DNA from: an uncultured Gemmatimonadaceae bacterium
Lineage (GTDB): Bacteria; Gemmatimonadota; Gemmatimonadetes; Gemmatimonadales; Gemmatimonadaceae
Assembly: GCA_963702675.1 (NCBI GenBank)
Contig: CAVPDN010000011.1
Span: 8,430-72,429, forward strand
Length of the DNA stretch: 64,000 nucleotides
Reading direction: 5' to 3'
Of the stretch, positions 1-64,000 are shown in pieces. Below the pieces are notes generated by a model. The model was not told the origin of the DNA. It made no database searches and saw only the letters and a program-made list of their open reading frames with translations. Made by a program: the position numbers and the translations under genes. The stretch's first letter is position 1. Each line of letters opens with the position of its first letter.

Positions 1-298
1 GACGTCGAGGAAAATACGAATATCGTTTCCGGCCGACAAGCGACGCAAAGCCGGCGCTGACTAACGCCGGCGCCGGCTGGGTCTTCCACGAATGTAGGCG
101 GCTAGGCCGCTGGCCTGGCGACTACGAGGCGAATTCCCGTCACCCCTTGTAGAGGTACGTTCACCCTAACACTCGGCGCGGCGGCGAAGGCGCTCGCGAA
201 CGTCATTTCGCGAGTGCTGCAGCCCGGGTGGCCGCATGCGACATGATCTGCACCCAAGATTTGCATTGGCTGACCGTGCTACTGGCCGCAAATGAGCC

Positions 299-1913
299 TC
301 ACAGCCTAACGCGCTCCTTGTGCGTCCCGTCCGCCGGCACCACAATCCGCGCCCGATAATCCGCGCAGTAGCTCTTCGACACCCGCAACACATACGCCCC
401 GCTCGGCACCACGATCGGCGTCGCCTGCGGAATCGCCCCACTCGCCACACTCGTCCCATCGACTGTCGAGAGATCCCACCGCGCCCCGTTAGGCTCGGCG
501 TCCACCGTCACGGTGCCACACGGATGCGGCGCCAGCTTCACCCTCACCTCGCCGTGGTCCGGCACCTGCGCGATCGCGCTGTCCGCCGCCCCCGCACACC
601 CCGCAATCGTTTTCACGGCAGCCACCACCCGATGCTCGCCGGCCGCGAACTTGGTCCCGCTCCAATTGCCGTGCCCAACGACCTTCCCATCCACCCGCAC
701 CTGGGCTTCGTTAGGCGCGGCGATGCGCAGGACCGGCGGCGGCGCCGGCGCGGCGGCGGCAGGAGGCGGCGCCTGGGGCACGGTCGCCGAGGCCGACTCC
801 ACATGGGTCGCGGCTGCGTCACCGGCACCGACGCGAGGGTCGAATCGGCGCTTGCGCACACCGGGCGGCGCCGCATGCGCCGCCTCGGCCTTGGCCCGGC
901 TCAGCGCCAGCGCGGAGATGATCGCCACCGCGCCTAACGCACCGCCCGCGGCCACCCACCGCGGCCGGCGCGGCGAAGCGCCGCCACCAGTCGGTCACGA
1001 TCTCCACGCCCGTCTGCACGGCCACGCCCGCGATCGGCGTCGGCATCACCACAGTGGCCTCGCCATCGGGACTCGATGCCCGGCCTAACAACTGAATCAA
1101 CTCGGCGTGGAGGGCGTCGCCGGTTGGGTATCGGGCGCCGGGCTCCTTCTCCAGACACTTGAGCACCACCCGCTCCACCCCGCGCGACAGGGCGGGGTTG
1201 AACGCCCGGGGCCGAGGCGGCAAATCTTCGACGTGCTGCCGCGCGATCTCGTACCAGTCCTCGCCCTGAAACGGCAGCACACCGGTCCCGGCCCGGAACA
1301 ACGTCACGCCTAACGAATAAATGTCGCCCCGACCATCAAGCGGAGCCCGCGCGCCTGCTCGGGCGAGAAATAGTGCGGCGTCCCCACCACCATGTTCGTC
1401 CCGGTCTGCTCCACATACCCGGTCACCGCCCGCGCTATCCCGAAGTCGGCCACGATCGCGTTCCCATGCTCGTCGAACAGAATGTTGTCCGTCTTGATGT
1501 CGCGATGGATCACACCCTCCCGATGCGCGAAGCCCAGTGCGGCGGACACATCCATGCCCAATCTGATGAGCAAGGTCTCGGGCAGCGTGCCCATGATCTT
1601 GAGCCGCTGGTCGAGACTGGTAGGCAAAAAGTCCATCACGAAATAGACGGCCTCGCCTTCGCGACCCACCGCCAGAATCCGGATGATGTTCGGATGCCGA
1701 AGCTTGGCGGCGGTCGACGCCTCGCGCCGAAACCGACTCTCGAAGGTCTCGTCGCCGGCAAACTGCGGCTTGAGTACCTTGATCGCCACCGGGATGTCGA
1801 GCTCAGGGTCGTATCCGCGGTACACCCACGCGAATCCACCCGATGCCGACGATCTCGTCGATGCGGAACCGACCCAGTTGCTTGCCGACGTATCGCTCAG
1901 GCACGGCGCTCAA
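299..1913 (-). pseudogene. Hanks-type Ser/Thr protein kinase with TM helix and PEGA-like C-terminal domain; frame broken at least 3 times
   Basis: ORFs 1310-1825, 819-1307 and 299-955 (-) join into one protein. Kinase motifs VAIKVLK, HRDIKTDNILF, DFGIA, GTPHYFSPEQ. TM segment AAGGALGAVAIISALAL. Frame jumps near 1840, 1315 and 960-990. Probable TTG start at 1913. Confidence 0.8.
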
Positions 1914-2002
1914 GCCTTTACAGGGGAGCTGACCGCAACTAAATTACTGTGCTTCAACGAATTCGGCCAACGAGAGAGAAAGGCGTCGGGGGAATATACA
2001 TA

Positions 2003-2264
2003 ATGGCGTTCGTCAAAGCTCCGCTCATTGAAAAGTACCGGGCACACGACACCGATAGCGGATCGTCCAAGCTCCAGGTATCGCTCCTCACCGAGCGCAT
2101 CAACTACCTCACCGATCACTTCCGCCTGCATCCCAAAGACAACCACAGTCGGCGTGGTCTGCTCAAGATGGTCGGGCGTCGTCGCCGTATCCTCGACTAC
2201 ATGAAGCGGACGGACCTCCAGGGGTATCGGCCAGCTCATCACCGAGCTTGGTCTGCGTCACTAA
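2003..2264 (+). pseudogene. rpsO: 30S ribosomal protein S15, 1-nt frame disruption near 2230
   Basis: [69 protein letters not shown]. The C-terminus LITELGLRH* is only read after a +1 shift at cggCcag. Length is 262 nt, not a multiple of 3. Confidence 0.85.
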
Positions 2265-2287
2265 GATCACCAGCCTTCTGCTTCCGG

Positions 2288-2322
2288 GCGGGCACCGCAA
2301 TACCGGTCCCCGCGCGTTTTGT
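2288..2322 (+). terminator. rpsO terminator/attenuator hairpin ahead of pnp
   Basis: GCGGGCACCG-CAATAC-CGGTCCCCGC stem-loop followed by GCGTTTTGTGTT, located between rpsO and pnp. Confidence 0.55.
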
Positions 2323-2343: not shown

Positions 2344-4620
<2,277 letters not shown>

Positions 4621-4624: not shown

Positions 4625-5886
4625 GCCCCGTTAGGCGGAAGCCCGACACCGGACTGCGCCGTACCACGCTGGCCAATGGACTGACCGTGCTCTCGGAGTA
4701 CATGCCGGGAGTGCGGTCGGTCAGTTTCGGGGCCTGGGTGCGCGCCGCGTCGGTTCATGAGCCGCGCGAGCGGATGGGCGTGTCGCACCTCCTCGAGCAC
4801 ATGGTGTTCAAGGGCACGCGGTCGCGCTCGGCGCGCGACATCGCGCTGTCGCTCGAAGTGTTAGGCGGCTCGCTGGACGCCTACACGGCGCGCGAGCACA
4901 CGTCGTTCCAGGCGCGCGTCCTCGACGAACATCTGCCGCAGGCGGCCGATGTCATCGGCGACCTCGTGTTCCGCCCGCTCCTGCGCGCCGAGGACCTGCG
5001 TCTCGAGCGGAAAGTTGTGCTCGAGGAAATCGGCATGGTCGAAGACACGCCCGACGACCTCGTGTTCGAGATGCACAACGAGGCCATGTGGGGCGCGCAT
5101 CCCTATGGCTACTCCATCCTCGGCACGCGCGAGACGGTCACTGCGTTGGGCGTGCGCGAGCTGCGGGAGCTGCACGCGCGGGCGTATCACCCGCCGCAGG
5201 TCGTGCTGGCCGCGGCCGGCAACGTGGACCACGATCATTTGCTGCAGGTGTTGACCGACACCGGTTGGGCGGACATTGACCGCGGCGACGCCACTCCGTT
5301 GGCCACGCCCGCGCTCACGCCGGCGCCGCCCACGGAGCGACACGTCCCGCGCGACGGTGCGCAGACGCACATCGTGTTCGGCTCGCCCACCGTGGCGCAC
5401 AGCGACCCGCGCCGCTACGCCGTGGTGCTCGTGGACACAGTGTTGGGCGGCGGCATGAGCTCGCGGCTCTTCCAGCGTGTGCGCGAAGAGCTGGGGCTCG
5501 CGTATTCGGTGTATTCGTTCCAGAACTTCCACCCCGAAACCGGATCGCACGGCGTCTATGTGGGCACCGCGCCCGAGACGGCGGCGCAAGCACGTGCGGC
5601 GATCCGGGACGAGTTGGCGCGCCTCACCGCCGAGAGTCTCACGGCGAAGGAAATCTCGGAGGGCAAGAGCCAGCTCAAGGGGCAGGTGACGCTGTCGCTG
5701 GAAAGCCCCTCGTCGCGGATGTATCGTGCGGCCGGCGTGGCGTTGTACGACGAGCCGTTCCGTACGCTCGACCAAGTGCTCGCCCTGATCGACGACATCA
5801 CCCCCGAGGTCGTGGCCGAAGTGTCGGCCGCGTTCTTCGATCCCGATCGGCAAACCGTGCTGGCGTTGGGCGGCGGCGACTGGTAG
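4621..5886 (+). CDS. M16 (pitrilysin/insulinase) family zinc peptidase
   Basis: Intact 421-aa ORF with the HxxEH motif ([14 protein letters not shown]). GTG start overlaps the pnp stop (GTGA). Confidence 0.85.
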
Positions 5887-5950: not shown

Positions 5951-7066
5951 ATGCTCATCGGCGTTCCGAAAGAGATCAAGACAAACGAGAATCGCGTCGC
6001 GCTAGTGCCGGCCGGCGCGGAGTCGCTGGTCGCCAACGGTCACAAGGTGCTCGTCGAGAAATCGGCGGGCGAAGGCAGCGGGTTCGCGGACGACTTGTAC
6101 GTCAAGGCGGGCGCGGCGATCGCGCCGGACGCCGATTCGGTCTGGAAGCAGGCCGACATGATCATGAAGGTGAAGGAGCCGATCGAGGTGGAGTGGAAGC
6201 GGATGCGGAAGGGGCAGACGATCTTCACGTACTTCCACTTCGCGGCCGACGAGAAGCTGACGCGCGCGCACATGACGAGCGGCGCCACGTGCATCGCCTA
6301 CGAAACGGTGCAGCTGCCTAACGGAGAGCTGCCGCTGCTCACACCGATGTCCGAAGTGGCGGGCCGCATGGCGGTGCAGGAGGGCGCGCGGTATCTGGAG
6401 AAGCTGCACGGCGGCCGCGGCGTTCTGTTAGGCGGCGTGCCCGGCGTGCCGCCGGGGAAGGTGGTGATTCTGGGCGGCGGCGTGGTGGGCACGCACGCGG
6501 CCAAGATGGCCGCCGGGTTGGGCGCCAAGGTCACGATTCTCGACATTTCCCTCGAGCGGTTGCGCTACCTGTCCGATGTGATGCCGGCCAACGTGACGCT
6601 CGTCTACTCCAACCGGCACACGATTCTCGAGCAGATCGCGACGGCCGATCTGGTGGTGGGCGCGGTGCTCGTGACAGGCGCCAAGGCGCCGCGGCTCGTG
6701 CGTCGCGACGATCTCAAGATCATGCAGCCCGGCTCGGTGATCGTGGACGTGGCCATCGACCAGGGCGGTTCCGTCGAAACGATTCACGCGACGACGCACG
6801 AGGATCCGGTGTATGTCGTGGACGGCGTGATCCACTACGGCGTGGCGAACATGCCCGGCGGCGTGCCGCGGACATCGACGCTGGCGCTGACTAACGCAAC
6901 CTTCCCCTACGCGCTGCAGTTGGCGAACAAGGGATGGAAGCAGGCGCTGCGCGAGAACGCGCCCTTGGCCAAGGGCCTCAACGTGGTGGACGGCAAGGTG
7001 GTCTATCCCGCGGTCGCGGAAGCGTTCGGTCTGGACTTCACGCCGGTGGCCAGCGCGCTGGCGTGA
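5951..7066 (+). CDS. ald: alanine dehydrogenase
   Basis: Intact 371 aa. [58 protein letters not shown] and ALTNAT are all classic Ald blocks. Confidence 0.93.
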
Positions 7067-7878
7067 CGCCGCCGCGCATCCTCTGCTACCACAAGGTCGA
7101 CAGGCGTGTCGAGTTAGGCGTGACGCGCCTGTCCCCCCGCCGGTTCGCGCAGCAGATCGAACGGCTTGCGCGCCGCGGCTGCACGACGCTCTCGCTGGAC
7201 CAGCTGCGCGCCTGCCTAACGGGCGCGCGCCGCGCCGCTGCCCACGAGATCGCGATCACCTTCGACGACGGCTACCGCGCGCTGCGCGACCACGCCTTCC
7301 CGGTGCTCGCGGCGCACGGCTTCGGCGCGATCTGCTTCGTCGTCACCGACTATGCGGGCCGGCTCAATCGCTGGGACGTGGCGTACGGCGGCCGTCGGTT
7401 CGCGCACCTCGCCTGGCGTGACATGCGGTGCTGGCAATCGCGCGGCATCGAGTTCGCGTCGCATACGGCGAGTCACCCGCGCCTCACGTGGCTCGCCAAT
7501 GACGACGTGGCGCGCGAGCTCTCACGCTCGCGCGCGGCGATCCGTGACGCGCTCAATGTAGACCCGGCCGCGGTGAGTTGGCCGTTCGGTGCGCACGGCG
7601 AGCGCGAGCACCGCATCGCGGAGCGGGAAGGGTACACCCTTGGCCTAACAATCGGTGGCGCGCGCAGGTGGGCCGCCGATCTGTTCGCCGTACCGCGTCA
7701 TCCCGTCTACATATGGTCGCCGGCGACGCCCGGATTTGGCGCGCTTGCGACTCTCAATGTGTTGGCGGGTACCGTCGCCAATCGGTGCGCGATCGGTACG
7801 TCGATCATTCAACGACGCCAGCCGAGCACTCGGGTGGCCGAGCACGGGCTGGCTACTACGTTCCTGTTGAAAGGATAA
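7063..7878 (+). CDS. polysaccharide deacetylase (NodB homology) family protein
   Basis: [23 protein letters not shown] and SHTASHPRL motifs. GTG start overlaps the ald stop. The last ~10 codons lie inside the left arm of the 7849-8044 inverted repeat. Confidence 0.75.
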
Positions 7879-8044
7879 AAGCGGAAACAAGGGATAACTG
7901 CGGATAGGGCAACAACAGCAAGCCTTTGCTAAAACAACAAAAACGGCTCCATCCTACGCGATTCGTCCCTTCTCGCCTAACGGAACGAGCTGCTCTGATC
8001 CCGTGTTTCCGCTGTGATCCTTTCAACATGAACGTTGTAGCCAG
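7849..8044. repeat. long imperfect inverted repeat (47-nt arms, 42/47 complementary, 102-nt spacer); MITE-like or structured-RNA candidate
   Basis: Left arm 7849-7895 is CTGGCTACTACGTTCCTGTTGAAAGGATAAAAGCGGAAACAAGGGAT. The reverse complement of 7998-8044 is CTGGCTACAACGTTCATGTTGAAAGGATCACAGCGGAAACACGGGAT. The spacer is A-rich and contains one GCCTAAC (7975-7981). Confidence 0.85.
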
Positions 8045-19014: not shown

Positions 19015-20462
<1,448 letters not shown>

Positions 20463-22240: not shown

Positions 22241-22256
22241 TCCGTTCCGTTAGGCA

Positions 22257-23866: not shown

Positions 23867-23924
23867 CACAAGGGCCAGGACACAACGCTGATAGTTCCAG
23901 CTGTGGCCTAACCGGAGAGGCGGA

Positions 23925-32863: not shown

Positions 32864-32909
32864 CCCACAATCCGCACCACATCCGCCGACTCAGTCCCCC
32901 GAGAGACAC

Positions 32910-36261: not shown

Positions 36262-36273
36262 GGCGGTCTTCCG

Positions 36274-38940
<2,667 letters not shown>

Positions 38941-38991
38941 GACGATCGGGTCTCCGCGAATGAAGGGGGCTTGGGCGGCGTGGGCCGCCGC

Positions 38992-52954: not shown

Positions 52955-52956
52955 CG

Positions 52957-56361: not shown

Positions 56362-58100
56362 CAGCCACCACGGCCACCGCCGCGGCAGCCCCGCTGACCG
56401 CCGAGCACGCGCTTCCCGAGCCGCCATTCCCGCCGCAGCTCGTGGAGGAATTCGTGCGCCATTTCGTGCGCGCGGTCAAGACGCACCAGCTGTACCTGCC
56501 TAACAATCCGATTTACCAGCGGTCCATCGACGGATTGCGCGCGTCGTTCGTGCCGATCTGGGAGGTCACCACCGAGCTCGTGCTGCAGATCTCGGAATCG
56601 GAGTTCCGGTGGATGGGGCGCAGCGTGCACCACGAGGGCTCGCGCTCGGAGAGCCTGCCGTGGGTGTTCTACAAGGACGGCCTGCGCGAGCTGACGATCA
56701 TGCAGGGCTTCGATCAGGACGAGGTCGCGACGCTGCTCGACATCATGCAGCGGGTGCGCAAGGCCTCGCCCGACGAAGACGATCTGCTGACGCTGCTCTG
56801 GGAGCAGGAGTTCGCGTACCTCCGCTACCGGTTCATCGACATCGGCGAAGCGTTAGGCGGCGACATCATGGACGCCGCGGAAGCGGCGGCGGCGGCGGCG
56901 AACGATCCCGATCATCCGGCGCCCGTGATCTCGGTATCCGACATCCGCGACAATGTCGCGGAGACGGAGCACAAGGGCATCGTGAAGCTCGAGGAGCTGG
57001 ACGGATCGCTCTACTTCCTGGACGAGCACGAGATCGACTATCTGCGCGAGGCCGTGCAGAAAGAGCAGACGCTCAACCTGCGCCGCAACGTGCTGGCGAT
57101 CCTGTTCGACATCGCGGAGACGCAACCGGCGCCCGAGGCGCGCGACGAAGTCTGCACGACCCTCGAGCAGATCATGCCGCACCTGCTCGCGGCGGGCGAC
57201 TACGGCGCGGTCGCGCTGCTGTTGCGCGAGGCCGCCGTGGTGCTCAAACGGGCGACCGATCTCGCGCCCGCGCATCGCGCGCGGTTCTCGGCCTTACCGG
57301 GACTCATCAGCAATCCGGCGGTGCTCCAGCAACTGCTCACGGCGCTCAACGACGCGACCACCGTGCCGCCGCAGGAGGATCTGGACGCCCTGTTCGAGCA
57401 GCTGCAAGGCGAGACGTTAGGCACGATTCTCTCCGGTCTCAAGCAGACCCAGCGCGCCGAGCTGCGCACGATGCTCGAGCGGACGGCGGCGCGGCTCGCG
57501 TCCTCGAACACGGCCGAGCTCCTCAAGCTGATCGCGGCCGAGGACGAGCAGGTGGCGCTCGAGGCAATGCGCCGCGCGGCCGATCTCAAGACGCCGGCGG
57601 CAGTGGGGCACTTGCTCAAGTGCCTGTCGCATCACGACGTGCCGCGCCGGTTAGGCGCGGTGCAGGCGCTGTCGGAGATCGGATCGCCGGGCGCGTTGCG
57701 GGCGCTCGAGTCGTCGCTCGACGACGCCGACCGCGACGTGCGGCTCACCGCCGTCCGGACGCTGAGCACCCGCGGCCACCGCGCGGCGCTGGCCAAGGTC
57801 GAGGCGGTGGTGAAGGGGGCGTCGGTGAAAGACGCGGACCTCACGGAGAAGATGGCCTACTTCGAGGCGTACGGACTGTTGGCCGGCAATGCCGGCATCC
57901 CGCAGCTCGATGGGCTGCTCAACGGACGCAGCGCGCTGCTGCGATTGCGCGTGGACGCGGATCTGCGCGCGTGCGCCGCCATGGCGTTAGGCCGGATCGG
58001 AACCGACAAGGCCTTCGAGGTGCTGCGCAAGGCGGCGGACGACAAGGACGTGCGCGTGCGCAGCGCGATCAACAAGGCCCTGAAGGGAGGCACGCAGTGA
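56358..58100 (+). CDS. HEAT-repeat protein with an N-terminal domain paralogous to that of the downstream HD-GYP protein
   Basis: GTG overlaps the trpB stop (GTGA). C-terminal HEAT/PBS-lyase-like repeats ([35 protein letters not shown]; [32 protein letters not shown]). Confidence 0.7.
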
Positions 58101-59599
58101 CGTCCGCCCAACCCATCCACGCCGCGACCGGCACGTACGGCCCGCCGGCAACGCCGCAGGAAATCGGCGAGCGCGGGAGCGACGGGTTCATCCGGAAGGT
58201 CGGACGCGAGATGCTCATGGCGGTGTACGGCGCGCTGCGCACGGTCAAGATGTATCCGCCCGACAACCCGGTGGTGCAGAAGTCGCTCGACGATCTCGTC
58301 CGCCTCACGAACGACCTGTGGCGCCGCGAGCAGGAAGTCGACATCCGCTGCACGGGCGAATTCATCTTCATCAACGGCACGCGGCTCCGACTCGACCTCG
58401 ACAACTACGCGACGTTCAGCCGCATCATCTCGGCGTTCCGCGAAGCGGGTGCGGGGGTGTGCCGCGTCCGCGGCGATACCACGCCCCGCGACTGGGTGGT
58501 GTTCCTGACCGTGCTCCAGGCGCCGGAACAGGGCGAGCCGGACGAACGCCTTCAAGCGTTAGGCGACAAGCTCACCGCCGCCAGCGTGACGGTGTTCGAG
58601 CTGGGGCCGTTCTCGGCGGCCGACGCGGCCGACGCGGCGAGCCAGCTGCAGGCCAAGGAAGCCGCCAAGCGCACCTACGCGCAATCGGTGTCGGTGACCA
58701 AGGAGGTCATCAACTCGGTGCGCATGGGCAAGAGCCCGAACATCAAGAAGATCAAGCGCGTGGTGCAGGGGATCGTCGACCAGATTCTGAACGAGGAGAC
58801 GTCGCTCATCGGCCTCACCACGTTGCGCGACTACGACGAGTACACGTTCACGCACAGCGTCAACGTGTGCATCTTCTCCGTTGCGTTAGGCAGGAAGGTG
58901 GGCCTCACCCGGCTCCAGTTGTACGATCTGGGCGTGGGCGCGCTGATGCACGACGTGGGCAAGGCGCGGGTGCCGCTCGAGATCCTCAACAAGCCGGGAT
59001 CGCTCAACGAAGATGAGTGGCGGGCGGTGTGCGCGCACCCCTGGATGGGCGTGCTGCAGCTCTTCCAGATGCGGGGGCAGAACGACATCCCGTATCGCGC
59101 GATGGTCGTGGCCTTCGAGCACCACAAGAAGACCGACCTCACCGGCTACCCGCGTCACGTTAGGCCGAGGGAGCTGAGCATCTACAGCAAGGTGGTGGCG
59201 GTGTCGGACGCGTTCGACGCGGCCACGTCGCGCCGCGCCTATCAAACGGTGCCGCTGTCGCCGGCCGACGTGCTGCAGGAAATGCGCATCAACCCGCGCC
59301 GCGGCATGGATCAGGTGCTGGTGAAGGCGTTCATGAGCCTGGTGGGTCACTACCCGGTGGGCACCCTGGTGGTGCTCGATACCTTCGAGCTCGCGCTGGT
59401 GCACGCCGCCAACCCCTCCCCTGATGCGATCTCGCGGCCTATCGTAAAGATCGTCAGCGATGAGCGCGGCAACGTGCTCTTCCCGGGCGCGCTCGCGGAT
59501 CTCACCGATCGGGACGCGGCTGGCGTGTACAAGCGCACGATCATCAAGGTGGCAGACCCCGACCGCTATGGCATCCGCGTCAGCGACTACTACATCTGA
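58097..59599 (+). CDS. HD-GYP domain protein (probable c-di-GMP phosphodiesterase)
   Basis: GTG overlaps the upstream stop. HSVNV, GALMHDVGK, HH..TDLTGYP (GYP) and VSDAFDAATSRRAY motifs. Confidence 0.85.
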   Translation: MTSAQPIHAATGTYGPPATPQEIGERGSDGFIRKVGREMLMAVYGALRTVKMYPPDNPVVQKSLDDLVRLTNDLWRREQEVDIRCTGEFIFINGTRLRLDLDNYATFSRIISAFREAGAGVCRVRGDTTPRDWVVFLTVLQAPEQGEPDERLQALGDKLTAASVTVFELGPFSAADAADAASQLQAKEAAKRTYAQSVSVTKEVINSVRMGKSPNIKKIKRVVQGIVDQILNEETSLIGLTTLRDYDEYTFTHSVNVCIFSVALGRKVGLTRLQLYDLGVGALMHDVGKARVPLEILNKPGSLNEDEWRAVCAHPWMGVLQLFQMRGQNDIPYRAMVVAFEHHKKTDLTGYPRHVRPRELSIYSKVVAVSDAFDAATSRRAYQTVPLSPADVLQEMRINPRRGMDQVLVKAFMSLVGHYPVGTLVVLDTFELALVHAANPSPDAISRPIVKIVSDERGNVLFPGALADLTDRDAAGVYKRTIIKVADPDRYGIRVSDYYI

Positions 59600-59602
59600 T
59601 CA

Positions 59603-60378
59603 GTGCTGCCCAACGATTTGCTGCGCTCGCCGAGCGGCGGCGTAAGGCGCTCGTCGCGTACATCACTGCCGGACATCCCGATCGCGCCCGCTCGCTCGCG
59701 TTGATGCGCGCGGTAGCGCGCGCCGGCGCCGACATCATCGAACTCGGCGTTCCGTTTTCGGATCCGTTGGCCGACGGCCCCGTGATACAGGCCAGCTCGC
59801 AGGAAGCGCTCGAGCACGGGATGACGTTCGACGGTGCGCTCGATCTCATCGCCGACGCGGCGGTCGACGTTCCCGTCGTCGTATTCACGTACCTGAATCC
59901 GTTATTGGCGGCGGGCGATGACGCGCTCGACCGCGCCGCGCAGGCCGGCGCGAGCGGACTCCTGCTCACCGATCTGCCGGTTGGCGCGGACCCGCCGCTC
60001 GAGGCGCGGATCGCCGCCGGCCCGCTCGCGTTCGTGCGGCTCGTGGCGCCCACGACGCCGTCGGCGCGGATGGCCGAGATCGCGCAGCGCGGCAGCGGGT
60101 TCGTGTATCTCATCAGCCGGTTAGGCGTGACCGGCGTCCGCGACGACGTGCCGGCCGACCTGCCGGCCACGGTCGAGCGCCTGCGCGCGGCGGCGTCGCT
60201 GCCGATCTGCGTCGGGTTCGGGATCGCGCGTCCCGAGCAGGCGGTGGCGGTGGCGCGGCTCGCCGACGGCGTCGTGGTGGGCAGCGCGCTAGTCCGGCAC
60301 GCTGGACAGAGCGTGGAGGCGGCGGCATCGTTCGTGGCGTCGCTCCGCGCCGCGCTCGATGCGGATGCGCCCGCCTAA
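59603..60378 (+). pseudogene. trpA: tryptophan synthase alpha chain, one frameshift near 59614
   Basis: GTG 59603, then a frame change into FAALAERRRKALVAYITAGHPD. ELGVPFSDPLADGPVIQ, GFVYLISRLGVTG, GFGI. The stop TAA lies inside GCCTAAC. Confidence 0.88.
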
Positions 60379-60419
60379 CGCAAAGTCCCGCATCATTCAC
60401 CAACCCTTTTCAACCTCCC

Positions 60420-60941: not shown

Positions 60942-60993
60942 CGGCGCGCCGAACCGTCGCGCCAAGAACGGCGCGCCGTCGAGCGGCGCCTGC

Positions 60994-62424
60994 CTAACGC
61001 AGATCGCGGAGCGCGCGTTCCCGGTCGGCGCTCGGGCGCACCATGAGCGTGCGCTCCTCGCGAATCACAACCGAGCCCGGCCTGGCGCCGCGCGGCTTCC
61101 GGACGTGCTTGCGGCGTGTCCAATCGACCGGCACGAGCGACGAGCCGCGCGATTTGCTGTGCCACGCCGCGAGCATTGCGGCATTGCGGAGGTCGCGCGC
61201 CGGCGGCGCGTCGGCGGCGGTCCAGCGGAGCACCACGTGCGCGCCGGCGGCATTGCGCGCGTGCAGCCACACGTCGTTGGGCGCGGCCGCATTGAACGTC
61301 AGCGCGTCGTTGGATGCGGCGCCGCGGCCCACCCAGATCTCGAGTCCGCCCGACGACCGGTACGTGCGGTACGGCACCCTGGGCGCGGGCGTGGGCGCGG
61401 CACGGGCGGCGCGCCCGCCTAACTGAGTTGGGCGAGGGGCCGGCGGCGAGTCGCGGGGCGCCGCGAGCCGCGCCGGCAACGCGGACAGCGCCCGTTCCTT
61501 GGACCGCGCCTCGTCGTAGAGCCGGGCGGCGAGCTGGGCCGCACTGTCGCCCGGACGCGCGGGCACCGGCCACTCGGCGCCATCCGGCAGCCGAATCGTC
61601 GCCGGCGCCGCCGCCTCGCCCAACGCAACCAGCGCGTCCGCGGCCGCGCGAACCTGCGGCGCGTCGTGCGCGCGATCGAGCTCCCCGCGCATCCGCTCCA
61701 TCGCGCGTTTGTGTCGCGCATCGCCGTCGGGTTCGGCGGCCCCTTCGCCGTGAGTCGCACTCCTGGTGTCGATCAGCGACTCGGCCGGCACCGGATTCGC
61801 GCAAAACGGAAACGGCAGCAGGTGCGCGCCACATTGAACCGGCGTGGCAGGCGCATCCGAACACATCACGCGGTAGCGTTCGACCGCGTCGTCCGAGTTG
61901 GCGATCATCCATTGGGCGATCAATGGGCTCATCCACCGCCCAGCCAGAAGCGCAGAAGCGTCTCCGGCACGAACGGCCGTGGCGAGCGCGTCGTCGCTCA
62001 ACTCGGGACGCGGCTCGACCAGCGGCGGGAGCTCGGCGCCCACCGATGCGAGCTTGGCGCCGCCGGCGTCGCGCAAGAGCGCTCCCCGCGCGCGCGGCAC
62101 CGCGCTCACGACGAGCTCGGCGCGTTTCTCCGCCGACCCCTTGAATCGACCCGGCCGGAACAATTCCATGATGAGCCGACGGTCATCGATGGGTGCGCGA
62201 ACGCCTCGGATGGTCCAGCCTTGGAGCGGGCCGCCCGCACGCCCGAGGGGATCGCCGTCGACCACGCGAACCTCGGCGTGCTCGAGCTCGAACCGGACCG
62301 TGCGTCCGTCGACCATGAGGGATGCGGCGCGCGCATCGCGGTCGAGCCGGCAAGCGTCCAGACGCCGGCCGCGCCAGCGCTCGTCCAGCTCGCGCGAGAG
62401 ATGCCGAGCCGTCAGGCTGTCCAC
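60994..62424 (-). CDS. NFACT-family (FbpA/RqcH-like, DUF814) protein
   Basis: Intact 476 aa. C-terminal GLEIWVGRGAASNDALTF...DVWLHARNAAGAHVVL (NFACT-R/DUF814). The stop TAG lies inside GTTAGGC. Confidence 0.75.
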   Translation of the reverse strand: MDSLTARHLSRELDERWRGRRLDACRLDRDARAASLMVDGRTVRFELEHAEVRVVDGDPLGRAGGPLQGWTIRGVRAPIDDRRLIMELFRPGRFKGSAEKRAELVVSAVPRARGALLRDAGGAKLASVGAELPPLVEPRPELSDDALATAVRAGDASALLAGRWMSPLIAQWMIANSDDAVERYRVMCSDAPATPVQCGAHLLPFPFCANPVPAESLIDTRSATHGEGAAEPDGDARHKRAMERMRGELDRAHDAPQVRAAADALVALGEAAAPATIRLPDGAEWPVPARPGDSAAQLAARLYDEARSKERALSALPARLAAPRDSPPAPRPTQLGGRAARAAPTPAPRVPYRTYRSSGGLEIWVGRGAASNDALTFNAAAPNDVWLHARNAAGAHVVLRWTAADAPPARDLRNAAMLAAWHSKSRGSSLVPVDWTRRKHVRKPRGARPGSVVIREERTLMVRPSADRERALRDLR

Positions 62425-62479
62425 GAGGCGAGGTTTGACACGCGCGGACGATGCCCGTACGTTCCCGCGCTGTCAACAG

Positions 62480-62899
62480 ATGCGTGACATTGCGTACATC
62501 GCGCTCGGCTCCAATCTGGGCGATCGGGCCGAATACCTGGCCTTCGCCCGCGCGCGGCTTGCAGCGCTTCCGGGAAGCCGCCTCCTCGACGCATCTTCCA
62601 TAGAAGAAACCGACCCCCTCGGCAACGTTCCGAACGGGGGCGGTCCGTACCTCAACCAAATGGTCGCGCTCGAAACGACGCTCGCGCCGCACGCGCTGCT
62701 CGATGCTTTGCACGTCATCGAGCACGATGCCAAACGCGAGCGTACGATCCGGTGGGGACCGCGGACACTGGACTTGGATATCGTCATGTTCGACGCGCAG
62801 ACCATTTCGGATCCGGATCTCACCATTCCGCACCCGGGTCTCGGGGCGAGGGATTTCTGGGATCGCGAGCTGGCCGAGCTCAAGGCGAAGGGCCGATGA
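62480..62899 (+). CDS. folK: 2-amino-4-hydroxy-6-hydroxymethyldihydropteridine diphosphokinase
   Basis: AYIALGSNLGD, YLNQMVALET, RWGPRTLDLDI, TIPHPG. Confidence 0.9.
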   Translation: MRDIAYIALGSNLGDRAEYLAFARARLAALPGSRLLDASSIEETDPLGNVPNGGGPYLNQMVALETTLAPHALLDALHVIEHDAKRERTIRWGPRTLDLDIVMFDAQTISDPDLTIPHPGLGARDFWDRELAELKAKGR

Positions 62900-63729
62900 G
62901 CAGCGAGGGCGGCTCACCGCAGTCGAGCGTCAAGCGGGTCGGGATTCGCGACGTGCGGGCGCGAAAGAACAGCGCTGAAAAACTCATCGTGCTCACGGCG
63001 TACGACGCGTTGTTCGCGCGGCTCGTCGACGAGAGCGGCGTCGATATCGTGTTGGTGGGCGATTCGGCGGGTACGGTGTTGTTAGGCTACGACACGACGA
63101 TTCCGGTGACGCTCGACCAGATGATCCACCACGCGGCGGCGGCGAGGCGCGGCGTGAAGCGTGCGTTGGTCACCGTCGACATGCCGTTCCTCACGTATCA
63201 GGTGAGCGGCGAGCAAGCGGTCACCAACTGCGGGCGCGTGATGCAGGAGTCGGGCGCCGACAGCGTGAAATTGGAGGGCGGGAGCGCGGAGGTGCTGCGC
63301 GCGGTGCAGGCCGTGACCGGCGTGGGCATTCCGGTGATGGGACACCTGGGCTACACGCCGCAGTCGGAGCATGCGTTAGGCAGGAGCCGCGTGCAGGCGC
63401 GCGACGAGCGCGACGCGTCGGCGCTGGTGGAGCACGCCAGGCGCCTCGAGGACGCGGGCGTGTTCTCGATCGTGCTCGAACTGATTCCGAAAGCGGTGGC
63501 GCGCGCGGTGACGCAGGCGGTGTCGGTCCCGACGATCGGCATTGGCGCGGGCGCCGAGTGCGACGGACAAGTGCTCGTATTGCACGACATGTTGGGTCTC
63601 AACGACAAGTTTTCTCCCAAATTCCTCAAGCGCTACGCGAATCTCGCCGACGACGTGCGGTCTGCCGTGCGTCGGTTCGGCGATGATGTCCGCGCCGGCC
63701 GCTACCCCGATGACGACCATAGCTTCTAG
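62896..63729 (+). CDS. panB: 3-methyl-2-oxobutanoate hydroxymethyltransferase
   Basis: [49 protein letters not shown] overlap with folK. Confidence 0.93.
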
Positions 63730-63730
63730 C

Positions 63731-64000
63731 ATGCGGATCATAGATCGGATTGCTGCATTGCGCAGCGCGCTCGTCGAGGCGCGGCGGCGCGGACAAGGTG
63801 TTGCGCTCATTCCCACGATGGGCTACCTGCACGACGGCCATCTGCAGCTGGTCGATGACGCGCGGCGTCACGCCGCGGTCGTCGTGATGAGCGTGTTCGT
63901 GAATCCCATGCAGTTCGGGCCGCACGAGGACTACACGCGGTATCCGCGCGATCTGGAAGGCGACGCGCTCAAGGCCGAGCGCCGCGGCGTCGACCTGCTG
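63731..64000 (+). CDS. panC: pantoate--beta-alanine ligase (5' part, runs off the window)
   Basis: [31 protein letters not shown]. Confidence 0.9.

What the first reader, a model, noticed from the sequence alone, without database searches (positions are those of the whole stretch)
1..64000. Hyper-abundant heptamer GCCTAAC/GTTAGGC written synonymously into coding sequence
By manual scan I count ~47 GCCTAAC and ~48 GTTAGGC on the plus strand, about 95 exact copies or ~1.5 per kb. There are also a few TTAGGC-only hexamers (e.g. near 24376) and 15 or more variants sharing the CTAAC core (e.g. ACTAAC 6890-6895, GTCTAAC 4456-4462 and 11122-11128). With roughly 0.34 per G/C and 0.16 per A/T, the composition-only expectation is about 7 for both orientations together. 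The copies sit inside genes in every frame that does not create a premature stop. They are built from codons this genome otherwise avoids. The contexts are xxG-TTA-GGC (Leu-Gly, ~58 cases), CCT-AAC (Pro-Asn, ~13), xxC-CTA-ACx (x-Leu-Thr, ~8) and GTT-AGG-Cxx (Val-Arg, ~6). The residues encoded are the conserved ones: Ald GVLLGGVPG at 6427-6433, TrpC SVLTE near 53990, ProRS LVRRDT near 20103. So the signal is at the DNA level and is not a protein motif. In ald and mreB the only in-frame TTA is the one inside the heptamer, although ptsN has one TTA outside it. Many other Leu-Gly pairs remain CTG/CTC/TTG-GGC, so recoding is partial. Orientation is balanced on the plus strand. Three copies are intergenic (7975, 22249, 23906). 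Spacing is aperiodic. One copy in pnp (3404-3411, G-C-TTAGGC) is broken by an indel. Balanced orientation, density and frame promiscuity resemble DNA uptake sequences (Neisseria DUS, Pasteurellaceae USS) more than polar signals such as Chi or KOPS. Alternatives are a binding or modification site of an unknown system, or an artificial watermark or recoding.
Basis: partly seen in the sequence, partly recalled or inferred. Interest (0 to 1): 0.9.

Follow-up and report, generated by a model that had tools for sequence, protein, structure and literature searches.

The report
Hyper-abundant GCCTAAC word in Gemmatimonadaceae genomes
A 7-base DNA word occurs about 1.5 times per kb in this uncultured soil bacterium, is absent from its nearest relatives, and looks like a "self-DNA tag" of the kind used for DNA uptake, not previously reported in this phylum.

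Summary
GCCTAAC/GTTAGGC occurs 95 times in 64 kb (47+48). A dinucleotide shuffle gives 2.3. A codon shuffle gives 4.3 against 82 copies in CDS. There are 0 copies in 371 kb of the nearest motif-free relatives.

The window is from an uncultured Gemmatimonadaceae genome. The word sits in all four stop-free frames, supplies 7 gene stop codons (TAA/TAG) and occurs between genes, so it is a DNA-level signal. Its orientation follows coding opportunity, not replication, and spacing is Poisson-like. Congeneric metagenome contigs (~86% nt identity) carry it at 1.5-1.7/kb. Copies are conserved more often than control 7-mers (69% vs 32%), and one-step variants form an enriched cloud.

The trait is all-or-none and polyphyletic: at least five clades have it, with dialect-like edge differences and clade-specific sites, while sister clades have none.

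It is not an artefact, watermark, peptide motif, Chi/KOPS-like signal or part of a longer repeat. The best reading is a self-recognition word kept by a transmission advantage in DNA uptake or recombination, like DUS/USS or cyanobacterial HIP1 (confidence about 0.4). The function and the specificity determinant are untested. I found no prior report.

The parts
304..310 (+). GCCTAAC copy
   Evidence: kinase C-term (PEGA)(-): GTT-AGG-CTG = VRL
488..494 (-). GCCTAAC copy
   Evidence: kinase C-term (PEGA)(-): GAG-CCT-AAC = EPN
710..716 (-). GCCTAAC copy
   Evidence: kinase C-term (PEGA)(-): GCG-CCT-AAC = APN
932..938 (+). GCCTAAC copy
   Evidence: kinase C-term (PEGA)(-): GCG-TTA-GGC = ALG
1083..1089 (+). 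GCCTAAC copy
   Evidence: inside frameshifted kinase gene, no frame assigned
1308..1314 (+). GCCTAAC copy
   Evidence: kinase gene, true frame S-L-G; apparent TAG stop is a frameshift artefact
3404..3411 (-). copy broken by a one-base insertion (G-C-TTAGGC)
   Evidence: L089 has intact GTTAGGC here; window has an extra C in an insertion-rich stretch of pnp
4630..4636 (-). GCCTAAC copy
   Evidence: M16 peptidase(+): GTT-AGG-CGG = VRR
4860..4866 (-). GCCTAAC copy
   Evidence: M16 peptidase(+): GTG-TTA-GGC = VLG
6316..6322 (+). GCCTAAC copy
   Evidence: ald(+): CTG-CCT-AAC = LPN
6427..6433 (-). GCCTAAC copy
   Evidence: ald(+): CTG-TTA-GGC = LLG
7113..7119 (-). GCCTAAC copy
   Evidence: polysaccharide deacetylase(+): GAG-TTA-GGC = ELG
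7214..7220 (+). GCCTAAC copy
   Evidence: polysaccharide deacetylase(+): TGC-CTA-ACG = CLT
7643..7649 (+). GCCTAAC copy
   Evidence: polysaccharide deacetylase(+): GGC-CTA-ACA = GLT
7975..7981 (+). GCCTAAC copy
   Evidence: intergenic, between arms of 50-nt inverted repeat 7846-7895/7998-8047
8162..8168 (+). GCCTAAC copy
   Evidence: GGR-like FAD oxidoreductase(-): ACG-TTA-GGC = TLG
10080..10086 (-). GCCTAAC copy
   Evidence: mreB(+): GCG-TTA-GGC = ALG
11029..11035 (-). GCCTAAC copy
   Evidence: mreC(+): CAG-TTA-GGC = QLG
11428..11434 (-). GCCTAAC copy
   Evidence: mreC(+): GTG-TTA-GGC = VLG
12036..12042 (-). GCCTAAC copy
   Evidence: mreD(+): CTG-TTA-GGC = LLG
12099..12105 (-). GCCTAAC copy
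   Evidence: mreD(+): GCG-TTA-GGC = ALG
13511..13517 (-). GCCTAAC copy
   Evidence: PBP2(+): CAG-TTA-GGC = QLG; inverted pair with 13528
13528..13534 (+). GCCTAAC copy
   Evidence: PBP2(+): GGC-CTA-ACG = GLT
14467..14473 (-). GCCTAAC copy
   Evidence: rodA(+): CGG-TTA-GGC = RLG
14992..14998 (-). GCCTAAC copy
   Evidence: rodA(+): TGG-TTA-GGC = WLG
15073..15079 (-). GCCTAAC copy
   Evidence: rodA(+): GTG-TTA-GGC = VLG
18458..18464 (-). GCCTAAC copy
   Evidence: hisS(+): GCG-TTA-GGC = ALG
18629..18635 (-). GCCTAAC copy
   Evidence: hisS(+): GCG-TTA-GGC = ALG
18921..18927 (-). GCCTAAC copy
   Evidence: hisS(+): GTT-AGG-CGA = VRR
20104..20110 (-). GCCTAAC copy
   Evidence: proS(+): GTT-AGG-CGC = VRR
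20684..20690 (-). GCCTAAC copy
   Evidence: lysA(+): TCG-TTA-GGC = SLG
20743..20749 (+). GCCTAAC copy
   Evidence: lysA(+): GGC-CTA-ACG = GLT
21444..21450 (-). GCCTAAC copy
   Evidence: lysA(+): GTT-AGG-CCG = VRP
22249..22255 (-). GCCTAAC copy
   Evidence: intergenic, 9 nt after stop of 21716-22240
23906..23912 (+). GCCTAAC copy
   Evidence: intergenic, 13 nt before start of 23925-24515
25135..25141 (+). GCCTAAC copy
   Evidence: PhzF-like(+): AAG-CCT-AAC = KPN
25715..25721 (+). GCCTAAC copy
   Evidence: supplies TAG stop of SnoaL-like gene 25717-26184(-)
26934..26940 (+). GCCTAAC copy
   Evidence: MarR(-): CCG-TTA-GGC = PLG
28662..28668 (-). GCCTAAC copy
   Evidence: MFS(+): GTG-TTA-GGC = VLG
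28674..28680 (-). GCCTAAC copy
   Evidence: MFS(+): GTG-TTA-GGC = VLG
28964..28970 (+). GCCTAAC copy
   Evidence: MFS(+): GGC-CTA-ACG = GLT; abuts 28971 as 14-nt palindrome
28971..28977 (-). GCCTAAC copy
   Evidence: MFS(+): ACG-TTA-GGC = TLG
29241..29247 (+). GCCTAAC copy
   Evidence: MFS(+): CTG-CCT-AAC = LPN
29884..29890 (+). GCCTAAC copy
   Evidence: SnoaL-like(-): ATG-TTA-GGC = MLG
30365..30371 (+). GCCTAAC copy
   Evidence: hypothetical 30146-30496(-): CGG-TTA-GGC = RLG
32182..32188 (-). GCCTAAC copy
   Evidence: AIRC-like(+): GCG-TTA-GGC = ALG
32443..32449 (+). GCCTAAC copy
   Evidence: AIRC-like(+): GCG-CCT-AAC = APN
32858..32864 (+). GCCTAAC copy
   Evidence: supplies TAA stop of 32105-32863(+)
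33621..33627 (-). GCCTAAC copy
   Evidence: GAF protein(+): GTT-AGG-CAT = VRH
34070..34076 (-). GCCTAAC copy
   Evidence: GAF protein(+): TCG-TTA-GGC = SLG
35340..35346 (+). GCCTAAC copy
   Evidence: DUF72(+): GCG-CCT-AAC = APN
35757..35763 (-). GCCTAAC copy
   Evidence: DUF72(+): AAG-TTA-GGC = KLG
36273..36279 (-). GCCTAAC copy
   Evidence: supplies TAA stop of ppdK 36274-38940(-)
36886..36892 (+). GCCTAAC copy
   Evidence: ppdK(-): CGG-TTA-GGC = RLG
36970..36976 (+). GCCTAAC copy
   Evidence: ppdK(-): ACG-TTA-GGC = TLG
37318..37324 (+). GCCTAAC copy
   Evidence: ppdK(-): CTG-TTA-GGC = LLG
38233..38239 (+). GCCTAAC copy
   Evidence: ppdK(-): ACG-TTA-GGC = TLG
38990..38996 (+). GCCTAAC copy
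   Evidence: supplies TAG stop of purF 38992-40359(-)
39583..39589 (+). GCCTAAC copy
   Evidence: purF(-): GCG-TTA-GGC = ALG
39817..39823 (+). GCCTAAC copy
   Evidence: purF(-): CGG-TTA-GGC = RLG
40702..40708 (+). GCCTAAC copy
   Evidence: purL(-): CCG-TTA-GGC = PLG, at a probable frameshift in purL
40926..40932 (+). GCCTAAC copy
   Evidence: purL(-): CTG-TTA-GGC = LLG
41085..41091 (+). GCCTAAC copy
   Evidence: purL(-): GCG-TTA-GGC = ALG
41854..41860 (-). GCCTAAC copy
   Evidence: purL(-): GGC-CTA-ACG = GLT
42558..42564 (+). GCCTAAC copy
   Evidence: purL(-): GAG-TTA-GGC = ELG
43725..43731 (+). GCCTAAC copy
   Evidence: psd/pss(-): CCG-TTA-GGC = PLG
44013..44019 (-). GCCTAAC copy
   Evidence: psd/pss(-): CCG-CCT-AAC = PPN
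44529..44535 (-). GCCTAAC copy
   Evidence: psd/pss(-): TTG-CCT-AAC = LPN
45264..45270 (-). GCCTAAC copy
   Evidence: purC(-): CGC-CTA-ACG = RLT
46295..46301 (-). GCCTAAC copy
   Evidence: purB(-): TCG-CCT-AAC = SPN
46919..46925 (+). GCCTAAC copy
   Evidence: purB(-): CGG-TTA-GGC = RLG
47457..47463 (+). GCCTAAC copy
   Evidence: in broken purB region, no frame assigned
48167..48173 (+). GCCTAAC copy
   Evidence: htrA(-): TGG-TTA-GGC = WLG
48398..48404 (-). GCCTAAC copy
   Evidence: htrA(-): GCG-CCT-AAC = APN
49051..49057 (+). GCCTAAC copy
   Evidence: tal(-): CGG-TTA-GGC = RLG
49159..49165 (+). GCCTAAC copy
   Evidence: tal(-): AAG-TTA-GGC = KLG
49794..49800 (+). GCCTAAC copy
   Evidence: truA(-): CTG-TTA-GGC = LLG
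52309..52315 (-). GCCTAAC copy
   Evidence: trpD(+): GCG-TTA-GGC = ALG
52558..52564 (-). GCCTAAC copy
   Evidence: trpD(+): GCG-TTA-GGC = ALG
52708..52714 (+). GCCTAAC copy
   Evidence: trpD(+): TCG-CCT-AAC = SPN
52949..52955 (+). GCCTAAC copy
   Evidence: supplies TAA stop of trpD 52004-52954(+)
54488..54494 (+). GCCTAAC copy
   Evidence: trpC(+): GGC-CTA-ACG = GLT
56498..56504 (+). GCCTAAC copy
   Evidence: HEAT-repeat(+): CTG-CCT-AAC = LPN
56852..56858 (-). GCCTAAC copy
   Evidence: HEAT-repeat(+): GCG-TTA-GGC = ALG
57416..57422 (-). GCCTAAC copy
   Evidence: HEAT-repeat(+): ACG-TTA-GGC = TLG
57650..57656 (-). GCCTAAC copy
   Evidence: HEAT-repeat(+): CGG-TTA-GGC = RLG
57986..57992 (-). GCCTAAC copy
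   Evidence: HEAT-repeat(+): GCG-TTA-GGC = ALG
58558..58564 (-). GCCTAAC copy
   Evidence: HD-domain(+): GCG-TTA-GGC = ALG
58885..58891 (-). GCCTAAC copy
   Evidence: HD-domain(+): GCG-TTA-GGC = ALG
59159..59165 (-). GCCTAAC copy
   Evidence: HD-domain(+): GTT-AGG-CCG = VRP
60120..60126 (-). GCCTAAC copy
   Evidence: trpA(+): CGG-TTA-GGC = RLG
60373..60379 (+). GCCTAAC copy
   Evidence: supplies TAA stop of trpA 59701-60378(+)
60992..60998 (+). GCCTAAC copy
   Evidence: supplies TAG stop of NFACT gene 60994-62424(-)
61417..61423 (+). GCCTAAC copy
   Evidence: NFACT(-): CAG-TTA-GGC = QLG
63081..63087 (-). GCCTAAC copy
   Evidence: panB(+): TTG-TTA-GGC = LLG
63375..63381 (-). GCCTAAC copy
   Evidence: panB(+): GCG-TTA-GGC = ALG

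Best explanation
GCCTAAC (8-mer GCCTAACG in some clades) is a double-strand DNA recognition word. Certain Gemmatimonadaceae lineages keep it at roughly 1.5 copies per kb, which would be several thousand copies per genome.

Proposed mechanism. Alleles that carry the word have a transmission advantage over alleles that do not. The most likely reason is that a sequence-specific component of DNA uptake or recombination (natural transformation), possibly acting through a cognate methyltransferase, prefers DNA that carries it. Ordinary GC-to-AT point mutations create the word wherever the protein tolerates it: Leu-Gly recoded to TTA-GGC, variable Pro-Asn and Leu-Thr positions, stop codons and spacers. 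Such alleles then fix despite using the rarest codons, and decaying copies are replaced. This would make it a functional analogue of Pasteurellaceae USS, Neisseriaceae DUS and cyanobacterial HIP1.

Shown here: the enrichment; its DNA-level and orientation-neutral nature; site retention; the variant cloud; the all-or-none polyphyletic distribution; the dialect-like differences.

Inferred only: that the advantage comes from uptake or recombination, and that a gained or lost specificity determinant explains the distribution.
For: Enrichment. 95 copies against 2.3 (dinucleotide shuffle), 4.3 (codon shuffle) and 0 in 371 kb of sister DNA.

DNA-level signal. All four stop-free frames are used, 7 copies provide gene stop codons, and 3 are intergenic. 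The word fills 35% of xG-Leu-Gly, 65% of xG-Pro-Asn, 30% of xGC-Leu-Thr and 18% of Val-Arg-Cxx opportunities, which roughly follows how few mutational steps each context needs.

No intrinsic strand preference. Occupancy is 61/192 against 21/47 (p=0.12). The sense ratio is the same in + and - genes (OR 1.02). Spacing is Poisson-like (CV 0.96).

Retention. In congeners at ~86% identity, 22 of 32 copies are unchanged, against 32% of same-phase 7-mers (p=2e-5) and 24% of non-motif G-Leu-GGx sites.

Variant cloud. One-step variants are 8-15x enriched, for example GCCCAAC (TTG-GGC) at 44 against 5.5 expected, as expected for a balance between mutation and drive.

Protein effect. Some copies came with amino-acid replacements at variable positions, as reported for USS (PMC2817400).

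Lineage pattern. The trait is heritable: every member of each positive clade carries it. There are dialect-like differences: the 8th base is G in 33/37 copies in clade c3 against 55/95 in the window (p=4e-4), and the 5' G is relaxed in clade c4 (p=7e-5). Sites are clade-specific: 12/14 shared within the genus, 0-2 between clades.

Density matches USS/DUS (my own knowledge, about 1 per kb). HIP1 is 15-300x over-represented and conserved (PMC5861425), and it enhances transformation when methylated (bioRxiv 10.1101/2024.09.10.611283; 10.64898/2026.06.24.733823).
Against: - There is no evidence that these uncultured bacteria are competent. No competence, pilin or methyltransferase gene lies in the window.
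- The core is shorter (7-8 nt) than known DUS (10-12 nt) or USS (9 nt plus flanks).
- There is no DUS-like clustering as inverted pairs at terminators.
- The nearest relatives have none at all, and the positive clades are scattered. This needs repeated gain or loss of the determinant.
- Retention and enrichment would follow equally from any selected binding or modification function.
Confidence: 0.4

Rival explanations
1. The word is the recognition site of a horizontally mobile DNA-modification enzyme: an orphan methyltransferase, or a Type IIG, Type III or BREX-like module with an asymmetric 6-8 nt site. It would be kept abundant because the modified site serves a host function (strand discrimination for repair, replication or chromosome bookkeeping), or because a linked repair activity converts near-cognate sites to cognate ones. 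This is the methylation-dependent repair model proposed for HIP sequences.
For: The format is an asymmetric 7-8-mer. The distribution is all-or-none and polyphyletic, with the same core in distant clades and edge changes of the kind seen when enzyme specificity shifts. Sites are clade-specific, as expected if each lineage built its own set after acquiring the module. For HIPs, the abundant word tracks a cognate methyltransferase (PMC4390886).
Against: Restriction or modification sites are normally neutral or avoided, not several-hundred-fold enriched (my own knowledge). A Vsr-type T:G-to-C:G repair drive cannot create the AT-rich TAA core from CTG/CTC/CCG/TGA, because those changes run GC-to-AT (one search shows the ancestral codons). 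Second-order selection on repair efficiency seems too weak to hold thousands of rare codons. There is no methyltransferase in the window.
Confidence: 0.2
2. The word is the binding site of an abundant sequence-specific chromosome-structuring or nucleoid-associated protein, selected for high and roughly even density. This follows the chromosome-structure proposal made for HIP1.
For: It is orientation-neutral, present in coding and non-coding DNA, and its sites are conserved. Xu et al. proposed a nucleoid role for HIP1 (PMC5861425).
Against: Spacing is indistinguishable from random, with no evenness or local periodicity. Total absence in sister genera implies the protein and its sites are dispensable and turn over together. 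No candidate protein is known.
Confidence: 0.1
3. A polar, replication- or repair-oriented signal such as Chi (RecBCD/AddAB) or KOPS/SRS (FtsK/SpoIIIE).
For: It is a short, asymmetric, lineage-specific word.
Against: Orientation follows gene strand only. The sense ratio is 38:13 in + genes and 23:8 in - genes, while GC skew keeps one sign across most of the window. The bias matches coding opportunity. Enrichment is far above what I recall for Chi.
Confidence: 0.03
4. A protein-, codon- or RNA-level signal, such as a selected Leu-Gly dipeptide, a TTA-GGC translational pause, an mRNA-binding site, or selection for off-frame stop codons.
For: 54 of 82 coding copies are xxG-TTA-GGC on the sense strand. 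The word carries TAA on one strand and TAG on the other.
Against: The same 7-mer appears in three other frames, on the antisense strand at equal or higher occupancy, in spacers and as stop codons. Leu-Gly, Pro-Asn, Leu-Thr and Val-Arg dipeptide counts equal those of motif-free orthologues. Off-frame-stop selection would not pick a single 7-mer.
Confidence: 0.02
5. An assembly or consensus artefact, or a deliberate watermark or recoding.
For: The window does contain many indel errors.
Against: The word is present at orthologous positions in three independent JGI metagenome contigs (14/18, 8/14 and 6/8 shared) and in dozens of MAGs from unrelated studies. It shows natural turnover and a cloud of variants.
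Confidence: 0.01

Closest known systems
Uptake signal sequence (USS) of Pasteurellaceae (Hin-type AAGTGCGGT, Apl-type ACAAGCGGT)
   Same: About one copy per kb, mostly inside genes, in both orientations. It is placed in reading frames that encode tolerated peptides, sometimes at the cost of amino-acid changes. It has a cloud of one-off variants and subclade-specific types (PMC2817400, PMC1626085, PMC1939737).
   Different: USS has a 9-nt core plus AT-rich flanks, whereas this word is 7-8 nt with no flank signal in the window. USS is tied to proven competence and uptake bias, and neither is known here. Here the nearest relatives lack the word completely.
DNA uptake sequence (DUS) of Neisseriaceae and its dialects
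   Same: Hyper-abundant, lineage-specific, with dialects that differ at the edges of a conserved core (PMC3630211).
   Different: DUS is 10-12 nt and is often found as inverted pairs forming terminators, and its receptor is the minor pilin ComP (my own knowledge). Here only 3 of 95 copies are intergenic, and the few inverted pairs lie inside genes.
HIP1 (GCGATCGC) and alternate HIPs of cyanobacteria
   Same: 15-300x over-representation, about one copy per gene, written into and between ORFs. Sites are conserved between genomes. Some lineages lack it or have replaced it. Its function was long unknown and is now linked to methylation-dependent transformation (PMC5861425, PMC4390886, bioRxiv 10.1101/2024.09.10.611283, 10.64898/2026.06.24.733823).
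   Different: HIP1 is a palindromic octamer with known cognate methyltransferases and 10-90 kb periodicity. This word is non-palindromic, AT-cored in a 68% GC genome, in another phylum, with no known enzyme. Periodicity cannot be tested in 64 kb.
Chi sites (e.g. E. coli GCTGGTGG)
   Same: A short asymmetric word that differs between lineages.
   Different: Chi is co-oriented with replication and only modestly enriched (my own knowledge). This word shows no replication-related skew and is >20x enriched over every null used (codon shuffle 82 vs 4.3, dinucleotide shuffle 95 vs 2.3; 0 copies in 371 kb of sister DNA).
Asymmetric methylation sites of Type IIG, Type III or BREX systems
   Same: A 6-8 nt non-palindromic word, with a patchy, HGT-like phylogenetic distribution.
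   Different: Such sites are not known to be driven to hyper-abundance (my own knowledge). No enzyme was identified here.

Membership tests
DNA uptake enhancing sequences (DUS/USS) | Genomic over-representation of one short word by one to two orders of magnitude, about 1 per kb | tested here: met
   95 copies in 64 kb against 2.3 / 4.3 / 0 expected; 1.45-1.67 per kb in congeners
DNA uptake enhancing sequences (DUS/USS) | Both orientations, with no replication-polar bias | tested here: met
   47 against 48 copies. Orientation is explained by gene strand and coding opportunity
DNA uptake enhancing sequences (DUS/USS) | Competent cells preferentially take up DNA carrying the word | not testable with these tools
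   Uncultured lineage; no assay possible
DNA uptake enhancing sequences (DUS/USS) | Competence machinery and a sequence-specific receptor (e.g. ComP) encoded in the genome | not tested
   None in the 64-kb window.
DNA uptake enhancing sequences (DUS/USS) | Clade-wide inheritance with dialects | tested here: met
   All members of five or more clades carry it. The 8th base and the 5' base differ between clades
DNA uptake enhancing sequences (DUS/USS) | Core of 9-12 nt, or a core with structured flanks | tested here: not met
   7-nt core. Flank preferences in the window are explained by amino-acid context. 8 nt in clade c3
HIP1-type highly iterated palindromes | Palindromic word | tested here: not met
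   GCCTAAC is not its own reverse complement
HIP1-type highly iterated palindromes | Sites conserved between genomes beyond the neutral expectation | tested here: met
   69% against 32% and 24%
HIP1-type highly iterated palindromes | A cognate methyltransferase is present when the word is abundant | not testable with these tools
   Needs whole genomes or methylomes
HIP1-type highly iterated palindromes | 10-90 kb periodic distribution | not testable with these tools
   The window is 64 kb. Local spacing is Poisson-like
Chi / KOPS-type polar signals | Strand skew co-oriented with replication | tested here: not met
   Same sense ratio in + and - genes (OR 1.02). GC skew shows no switch
REP / MITE-type dispersed repeats | A longer (>20 nt) conserved unit, mostly intergenic | tested here: not met
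   No information outside the 7-mer. Repeat families are only chance extensions. 86% of copies are in CDS
Restriction-modification recognition site | Word frequency neutral or depleted relative to expectation | tested here: not met
   >20-fold enriched over shuffle nulls, 0 copies in 371 kb of sister DNA

The most novel reading that the evidence does not exclude
A previously unrecognised self-DNA recognition system in Gemmatimonadota. A transferable specificity determinant (an uptake receptor and/or methyltransferase) would, once acquired by a lineage, drive thousands of GCCTAAC words into the genome, filling a third or more of all tolerated positions. They would vanish again when the determinant is lost. 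This would be the first uptake-sequence-like system in a soil phylum outside Proteobacteria and Cyanobacteria, with the shortest core and the highest saturation known.
Probability: 0.3. Interest if true: 0.85.

Novelty: new variant of a known kind. Interest (0 to 1): 0.78.

Why it matters
Only two bacterial families (Neisseriaceae and Pasteurellaceae) have accepted DNA uptake sequences. HIP1 of cyanobacteria is only now being linked to transformation.

A third or fourth, independent, very strong case in abundant but almost uncultured soil bacteria would show that genome-wide "self tags" are more widespread than thought.

The all-or-none contrast between sister genera is a natural experiment. 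It could identify the determinant by phylogenetic profiling and measure how fast such a drive rewrites a genome. That includes its cost in rare codons: 77% of all TTA codons here lie in the word.

There is also a practical side. The word is a sharp marker for binning and for detecting foreign DNA in these MAGs, and it could help in making these organisms transformable.

Tried and rejected
- Different dispersed words in other Gemmatimonadaceae. A per-locus k-mer scan suggested this (TGGGAGT, CCACCGT, GTGACTA, AAACAGG). Inspection showed they are local tandem arrays, partly at contig ends, so I dropped the idea. Pooled motif-negative clades show no dispersed hyper-abundant word.
- An 8th base in the window. 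The apparent G preference there (55/95) is explained by the amino acid before Leu-Gly. It is a real 8-mer only in other clades.
- Exact-protein look-up of the window's MreB found nothing. P0001 had no DNA available. P0002 contigs (L081-L086) belong to the motif-free sister group.
- I looked for a cultured reference via plasmids. The guessed accession CP007129 was not found, and a PPDK tblastn against plasmids gave no Gemmatimonadota.
- Literature searches for the word itself, for Gemmatimonadota plus uptake sequence, and for the word as a REBASE/methylome motif gave nothing relevant.
- Proteome distortion was rejected: dipeptide counts equal those of the sister genomes.
- Membership of a longer repeat was rejected.
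- Scanning the viral collection for motif pairs was considered and not run, because chance matches to 14 specified bases would swamp any signal.

Full report

Yes. An exact search finds 95 copies of GCCTAAC on the two strands of the 64-kb window: 47 as GCCTAAC and 48 as GTTAGGC on the + strand. Three nulls were used.
- 100 dinucleotide-preserving shuffles give 2.26 +/- 1.45, maximum 7.
- A within-gene shuffle of synonymous codons keeps protein sequences and every rare TTA/CTA/CCT/AGG codon, so it is generous. It gives 4.3 +/- 2.1, maximum 13, against 82 copies inside my CDS calls.
- 371 kb of orthologous DNA from the closest motif-free relatives holds no copy at all.

No position outside the seven bases carries information beyond what codon structure explains. 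The word is not part of a longer repeat. After masking it, nothing comparable remains in the window.

**2. Where does the window come from?**

MreB (9691-10728) is 95-97% identical to MreB of uncultured Gemmatimonadaceae MAGs. The window is 67.6% G+C. It encodes only housekeeping functions:
- rpsO-pnp region, ald, mreBCD-PBP2-rodA
- accD-folC-hisS-proS-lysA, guaA
- a small accessory block (23.9-30 kb), ptsN, dus
- ppdK, purFLQSCB, htrA, tal, truA
- the trp genes, lexA, folK-panBC and a tmRNA

There is no competence gene, pilin, methyltransferase or restriction gene.

**3. Anatomy**

I used my own codon-model gene calls (they cover 86% of the window). Coding copies fall in all four frames that avoid an internal stop:

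| Context | Dipeptide | Copies |
|---|---|---|
| xxG-TTA-GGC | Leu-Gly | 54 |
| GTT-AGG-C | Val-Arg | 7 |
| G-CCT-AAC | Pro-Asn | 13 |
| GC-CTA-AC | Leu-Thr | 8 |

The two remaining frames are used as well, but only where a stop is wanted. Seven genes end in a TAA or TAG supplied by the word: those ending at 25717, 32863, 36274, 38992, 52954, 60378 and 60994. Two further apparent cases (1310, 40704) are frameshift artefacts. Three copies are truly intergenic.

54 of the 70 in-frame TTA codons of the window lie in the word, as do 8 of 20 CTA, 13 of 46 CCT and 7 of 49 AGG. The fraction of amino-acid-level opportunities that carry the word is very high:

| Opportunity | Carrying the word | Fraction |
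|---|---|---|
| xG-Leu-Gly | 54/153 | 35% |
| xG-Pro-Asn | 13/20 | 65% |
| xGC-Leu-Thr | 8/27 | 30% |
| Val-Arg-Cxx | 7/39 | 18% |

This order roughly follows how few substitutions are needed from the preferred codons.

GTTAGGC lies on the coding strand three times as often as GCCTAAC. That bias is the same in + genes (38:13) and - genes (23:8; OR 1.02). It matches the ratio of coding opportunities: occupancy is 61/192 against 21/47, p=0.12. GC skew does not switch sign across the window, and spacing is indistinguishable from random placement (CV 0.96, largest gap 3.4 kb).

So the word is a double-strand, orientation-neutral DNA feature. It is not a peptide, codon-pair, RNA or replication-polar signal.

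**4. Relatives**

Eighty MreB loci from GTDB species representatives and eighty PBP2 loci from metagenomes were scanned.

*All-or-none trait.* Positive loci carry 0.3-1.7 copies per kb and negative loci carry essentially none.

*Congeners.* Three JGI contigs (L087, L088, L089) are ~86% identical to the window and carry 1.45-1.67 copies per kb. L087 and L088 are 97% identical to each other, and L089 is ~90% identical to them. Most sites are shared: 14/18, 8/14 and 6/8. This rules out an artefact or a watermark.

*Retention.* Copies are retained far more often than neutral expectation. 22 of 32 are unchanged, against 32% for same-phase 7-mers (p=2e-5) and 24% for non-motif G-Leu-GGx sites. L088 and L089 overlap, so these counts are not fully independent. 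Gains and losses both occur, and the alternative states are 1-3 substitutions away.

*Variant cloud.* Relative to the motif-free pool, one-step variants are enriched 8-15x: GCCCAAC (TTG-GGC) 44 against 5.5, and TCCTAAC, GACTAAC and GCCTTAC 5 against 0.3 each. This is a cloud of precursors or decay products.

*Ancestral codons.* In motif-free sister genomes, the Leu-Gly sites encode the same dipeptide with CTC/CTG-GGN. That makes them true synonymous recoding needing GC-to-AT changes. Most Pro-Asn and Leu-Thr sites encode other residues there (Pro-Ala, Pro-Asp, Ala-Arg, Phe-Thr, Leu-Ser), so those copies came with amino-acid replacements at variable positions. Dipeptide totals are nevertheless unchanged.

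**5. Phylogenetic pattern**

On a PBP2 tree (144 taxa) and a bootstrapped MreB+MreC+PBP2 tree (110 taxa), the positive loci form at least five separate clades:
- the window's genus
- L007 + L105
- c3: L037, L041, L053, L098, L101, L119, L123, L124
- c4: L127-L151 and others
- c5: L161 + L164
- in addition L021/L031/L032 and L066, which were not placed on the tree

The window's genus is nested among motif-free sisters (L001, L002, L009, L081 and others) with 100/100 and 97/100 support. The trait therefore needs either about five gains or about ten losses.

The core is the same everywhere but the edges differ. In c3 the 8th base is G in 33/37 copies, against 55/95 in the window (p=4e-4). In c4 the 5' G is relaxed (69/95 against 95/101, p=7e-5) and the 8th base is a purine.

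Sites are clade-specific: 12/14 are shared within the genus, but only 0-2 of 7-14 covered sites between clades. Each clade has therefore built or fully turned over its own set.

**6. What it most likely is**

What is shown:
- A force acts on the DNA word itself.
- It is strong enough to override the strongest codon avoidance in the genome, and sometimes amino-acid identity.
- It is indifferent to strand and frame.
- It acts continuously (retention plus turnover plus the variant cloud).
- It is switched on or off at the level of genera.

This is the signature described for uptake sequences (PMC2817400, PMC1939737, PMC3630211) and for HIP1 (PMC5861425). HIP1 has recently been shown to boost natural transformation when methylated, and its abundance correlates with DNA-uptake machinery (bioRxiv 10.1101/2024.09.10.611283; 10.64898/2026.06.24.733823).

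I therefore favour a self-recognition word kept by a transmission advantage in DNA uptake or recombination, possibly read through a cognate methylation (confidence about 0.4).

*Closest rival (about 0.2).* A mobile modification enzyme whose site is kept abundant for a host function or by a linked repair bias. A Vsr-type T:G-to-C:G drive cannot be the cause, because building the TAA core needs GC-to-AT changes.

*Other rivals.* A nucleoid-protein site (about 0.1) is not excluded. Chi/KOPS-like, peptide/RNA-level and artefact explanations are disfavoured or refuted by the tests above. The remaining probability belongs to mechanisms not yet imagined.

**7. Known or new?**

Full-text searches found no report of this word, nor of any uptake-like or hyper-abundant sequence in Gemmatimonadota. 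The Gemmatimonas-labelled loci (L064, L069, L074, L079) lack the word, which may be why it has gone unnoticed.

It fails defining features of each known family (section Membership tests):
- not palindromic (HIP1)
- shorter than DUS/USS, with no proven uptake bias
- not polar (Chi/KOPS)
- enriched rather than avoided (R-M sites)

I class it as a new variant of the known kind 'lineage-specific hyper-abundant genomic word'.

**8. Caveats**

- Gene calls are home-made, and several genes are frameshifted, so a few frame assignments are uncertain.
- Trees are neighbour-joining on three proteins.
- Relatives are represented by 2-22 kb each, so low densities are imprecise.
- Genome-wide behaviour (replichore skew, periodicity, islands) and the determinant could not be examined.

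Noticed in passing
window 299-1825, 2344-4461, 15553-20466, 22519-23821, 40381-42740, 46154-47596: Many housekeeping genes are broken, although their orthologues in L081/L089 are intact. These are the Ser/Thr kinase, pnp, accD, folC, hisS, proS, guaA, purL and purB. pnp alone has 11 one-base insertions, mostly C/G, at 2761-3405 and 4292, with normal substitution divergence around them. This looks like clustered long-read assembly errors rather than pseudogenes.
   Followed up: partly
window 14948-14950: There is an in-frame TAG inside rodA (GGC-TAG-CAC), where from recalled knowledge of the E. coli RodA Gly-Tyr-His motif a Tyr TAC is inferred; the orthologue codon was not inspected, only that L081 rodA is an intact 416-aa ORF. 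It is either a base error or a real nonsense mutation in an essential gene.
   Followed up: partly
window 34800-35154 (+): tmRNA gene with tag peptide ANNNLALAA. It holds no copy of the heptamer.
   Followed up: yes
window 7846-7895 / 7998-8047: A 50-nt inverted repeat, 88% complementary with a 102-nt spacer, lies in the AT-richer spacer between two convergent genes. One heptamer copy (7975) sits between the arms. Its function is unknown.
   Followed up: no
window 15444-15482, 30075-30113, 23815-23842, 30125-30152: REP-like G-rich palindromic hairpins (GGGAACGGGGAAGC...GCTTCCCCGTTCCC) recur downstream of genes. They are probably terminator-type dispersed repeats.
   Followed up: no
window 52004-60378: The trp cluster is interrupted. 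lexA lies on the opposite strand between trpD and trpC. A HEAT-repeat gene (56358-58100) and an HD-domain gene (58097-59599) lie between trpB and trpA.
   Followed up: no
window 43683-45233 (-): A single ORF combines phosphatidylserine decarboxylase and CDP-alcohol phosphatidyltransferase domains, embedded among the pur genes.
   Followed up: no
L009 8180-8350 and 15534-15751; L057 15815-15906: Relatives carry short tandem heptamer arrays arranged as inverted pairs: (CTGAACC)n in L009 and (CTAGTCA)n in L057. They were first mistaken for dispersed motifs.
   Followed up: partly
L027 1-110; L044 1-120: Contigs begin with perfect tandem arrays: (CCGTTCCA)n in L027 and (ACTCCCACGC)n in L044. These may be assembly break points at repeats or real terminal repeats.
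   Followed up: no
L070, L072 (whole loci): The palindrome GGAATTCC is about 8-12x over-represented in two related low-GC Gemmatimonadaceae loci (16 against 1.9 and 10 against 0.8). It may be a HIP-like palindrome in another lineage.
   Followed up: no
window 40704, 46154 and 50667 gene contexts: The one-off variant GTTAGTC (xxG-TTA-GTC, Leu-Val) accounts for 3 of the 16 TTA codons outside the exact word. Near-cognate words seem to be tolerated or favoured too.
   Followed up: partly
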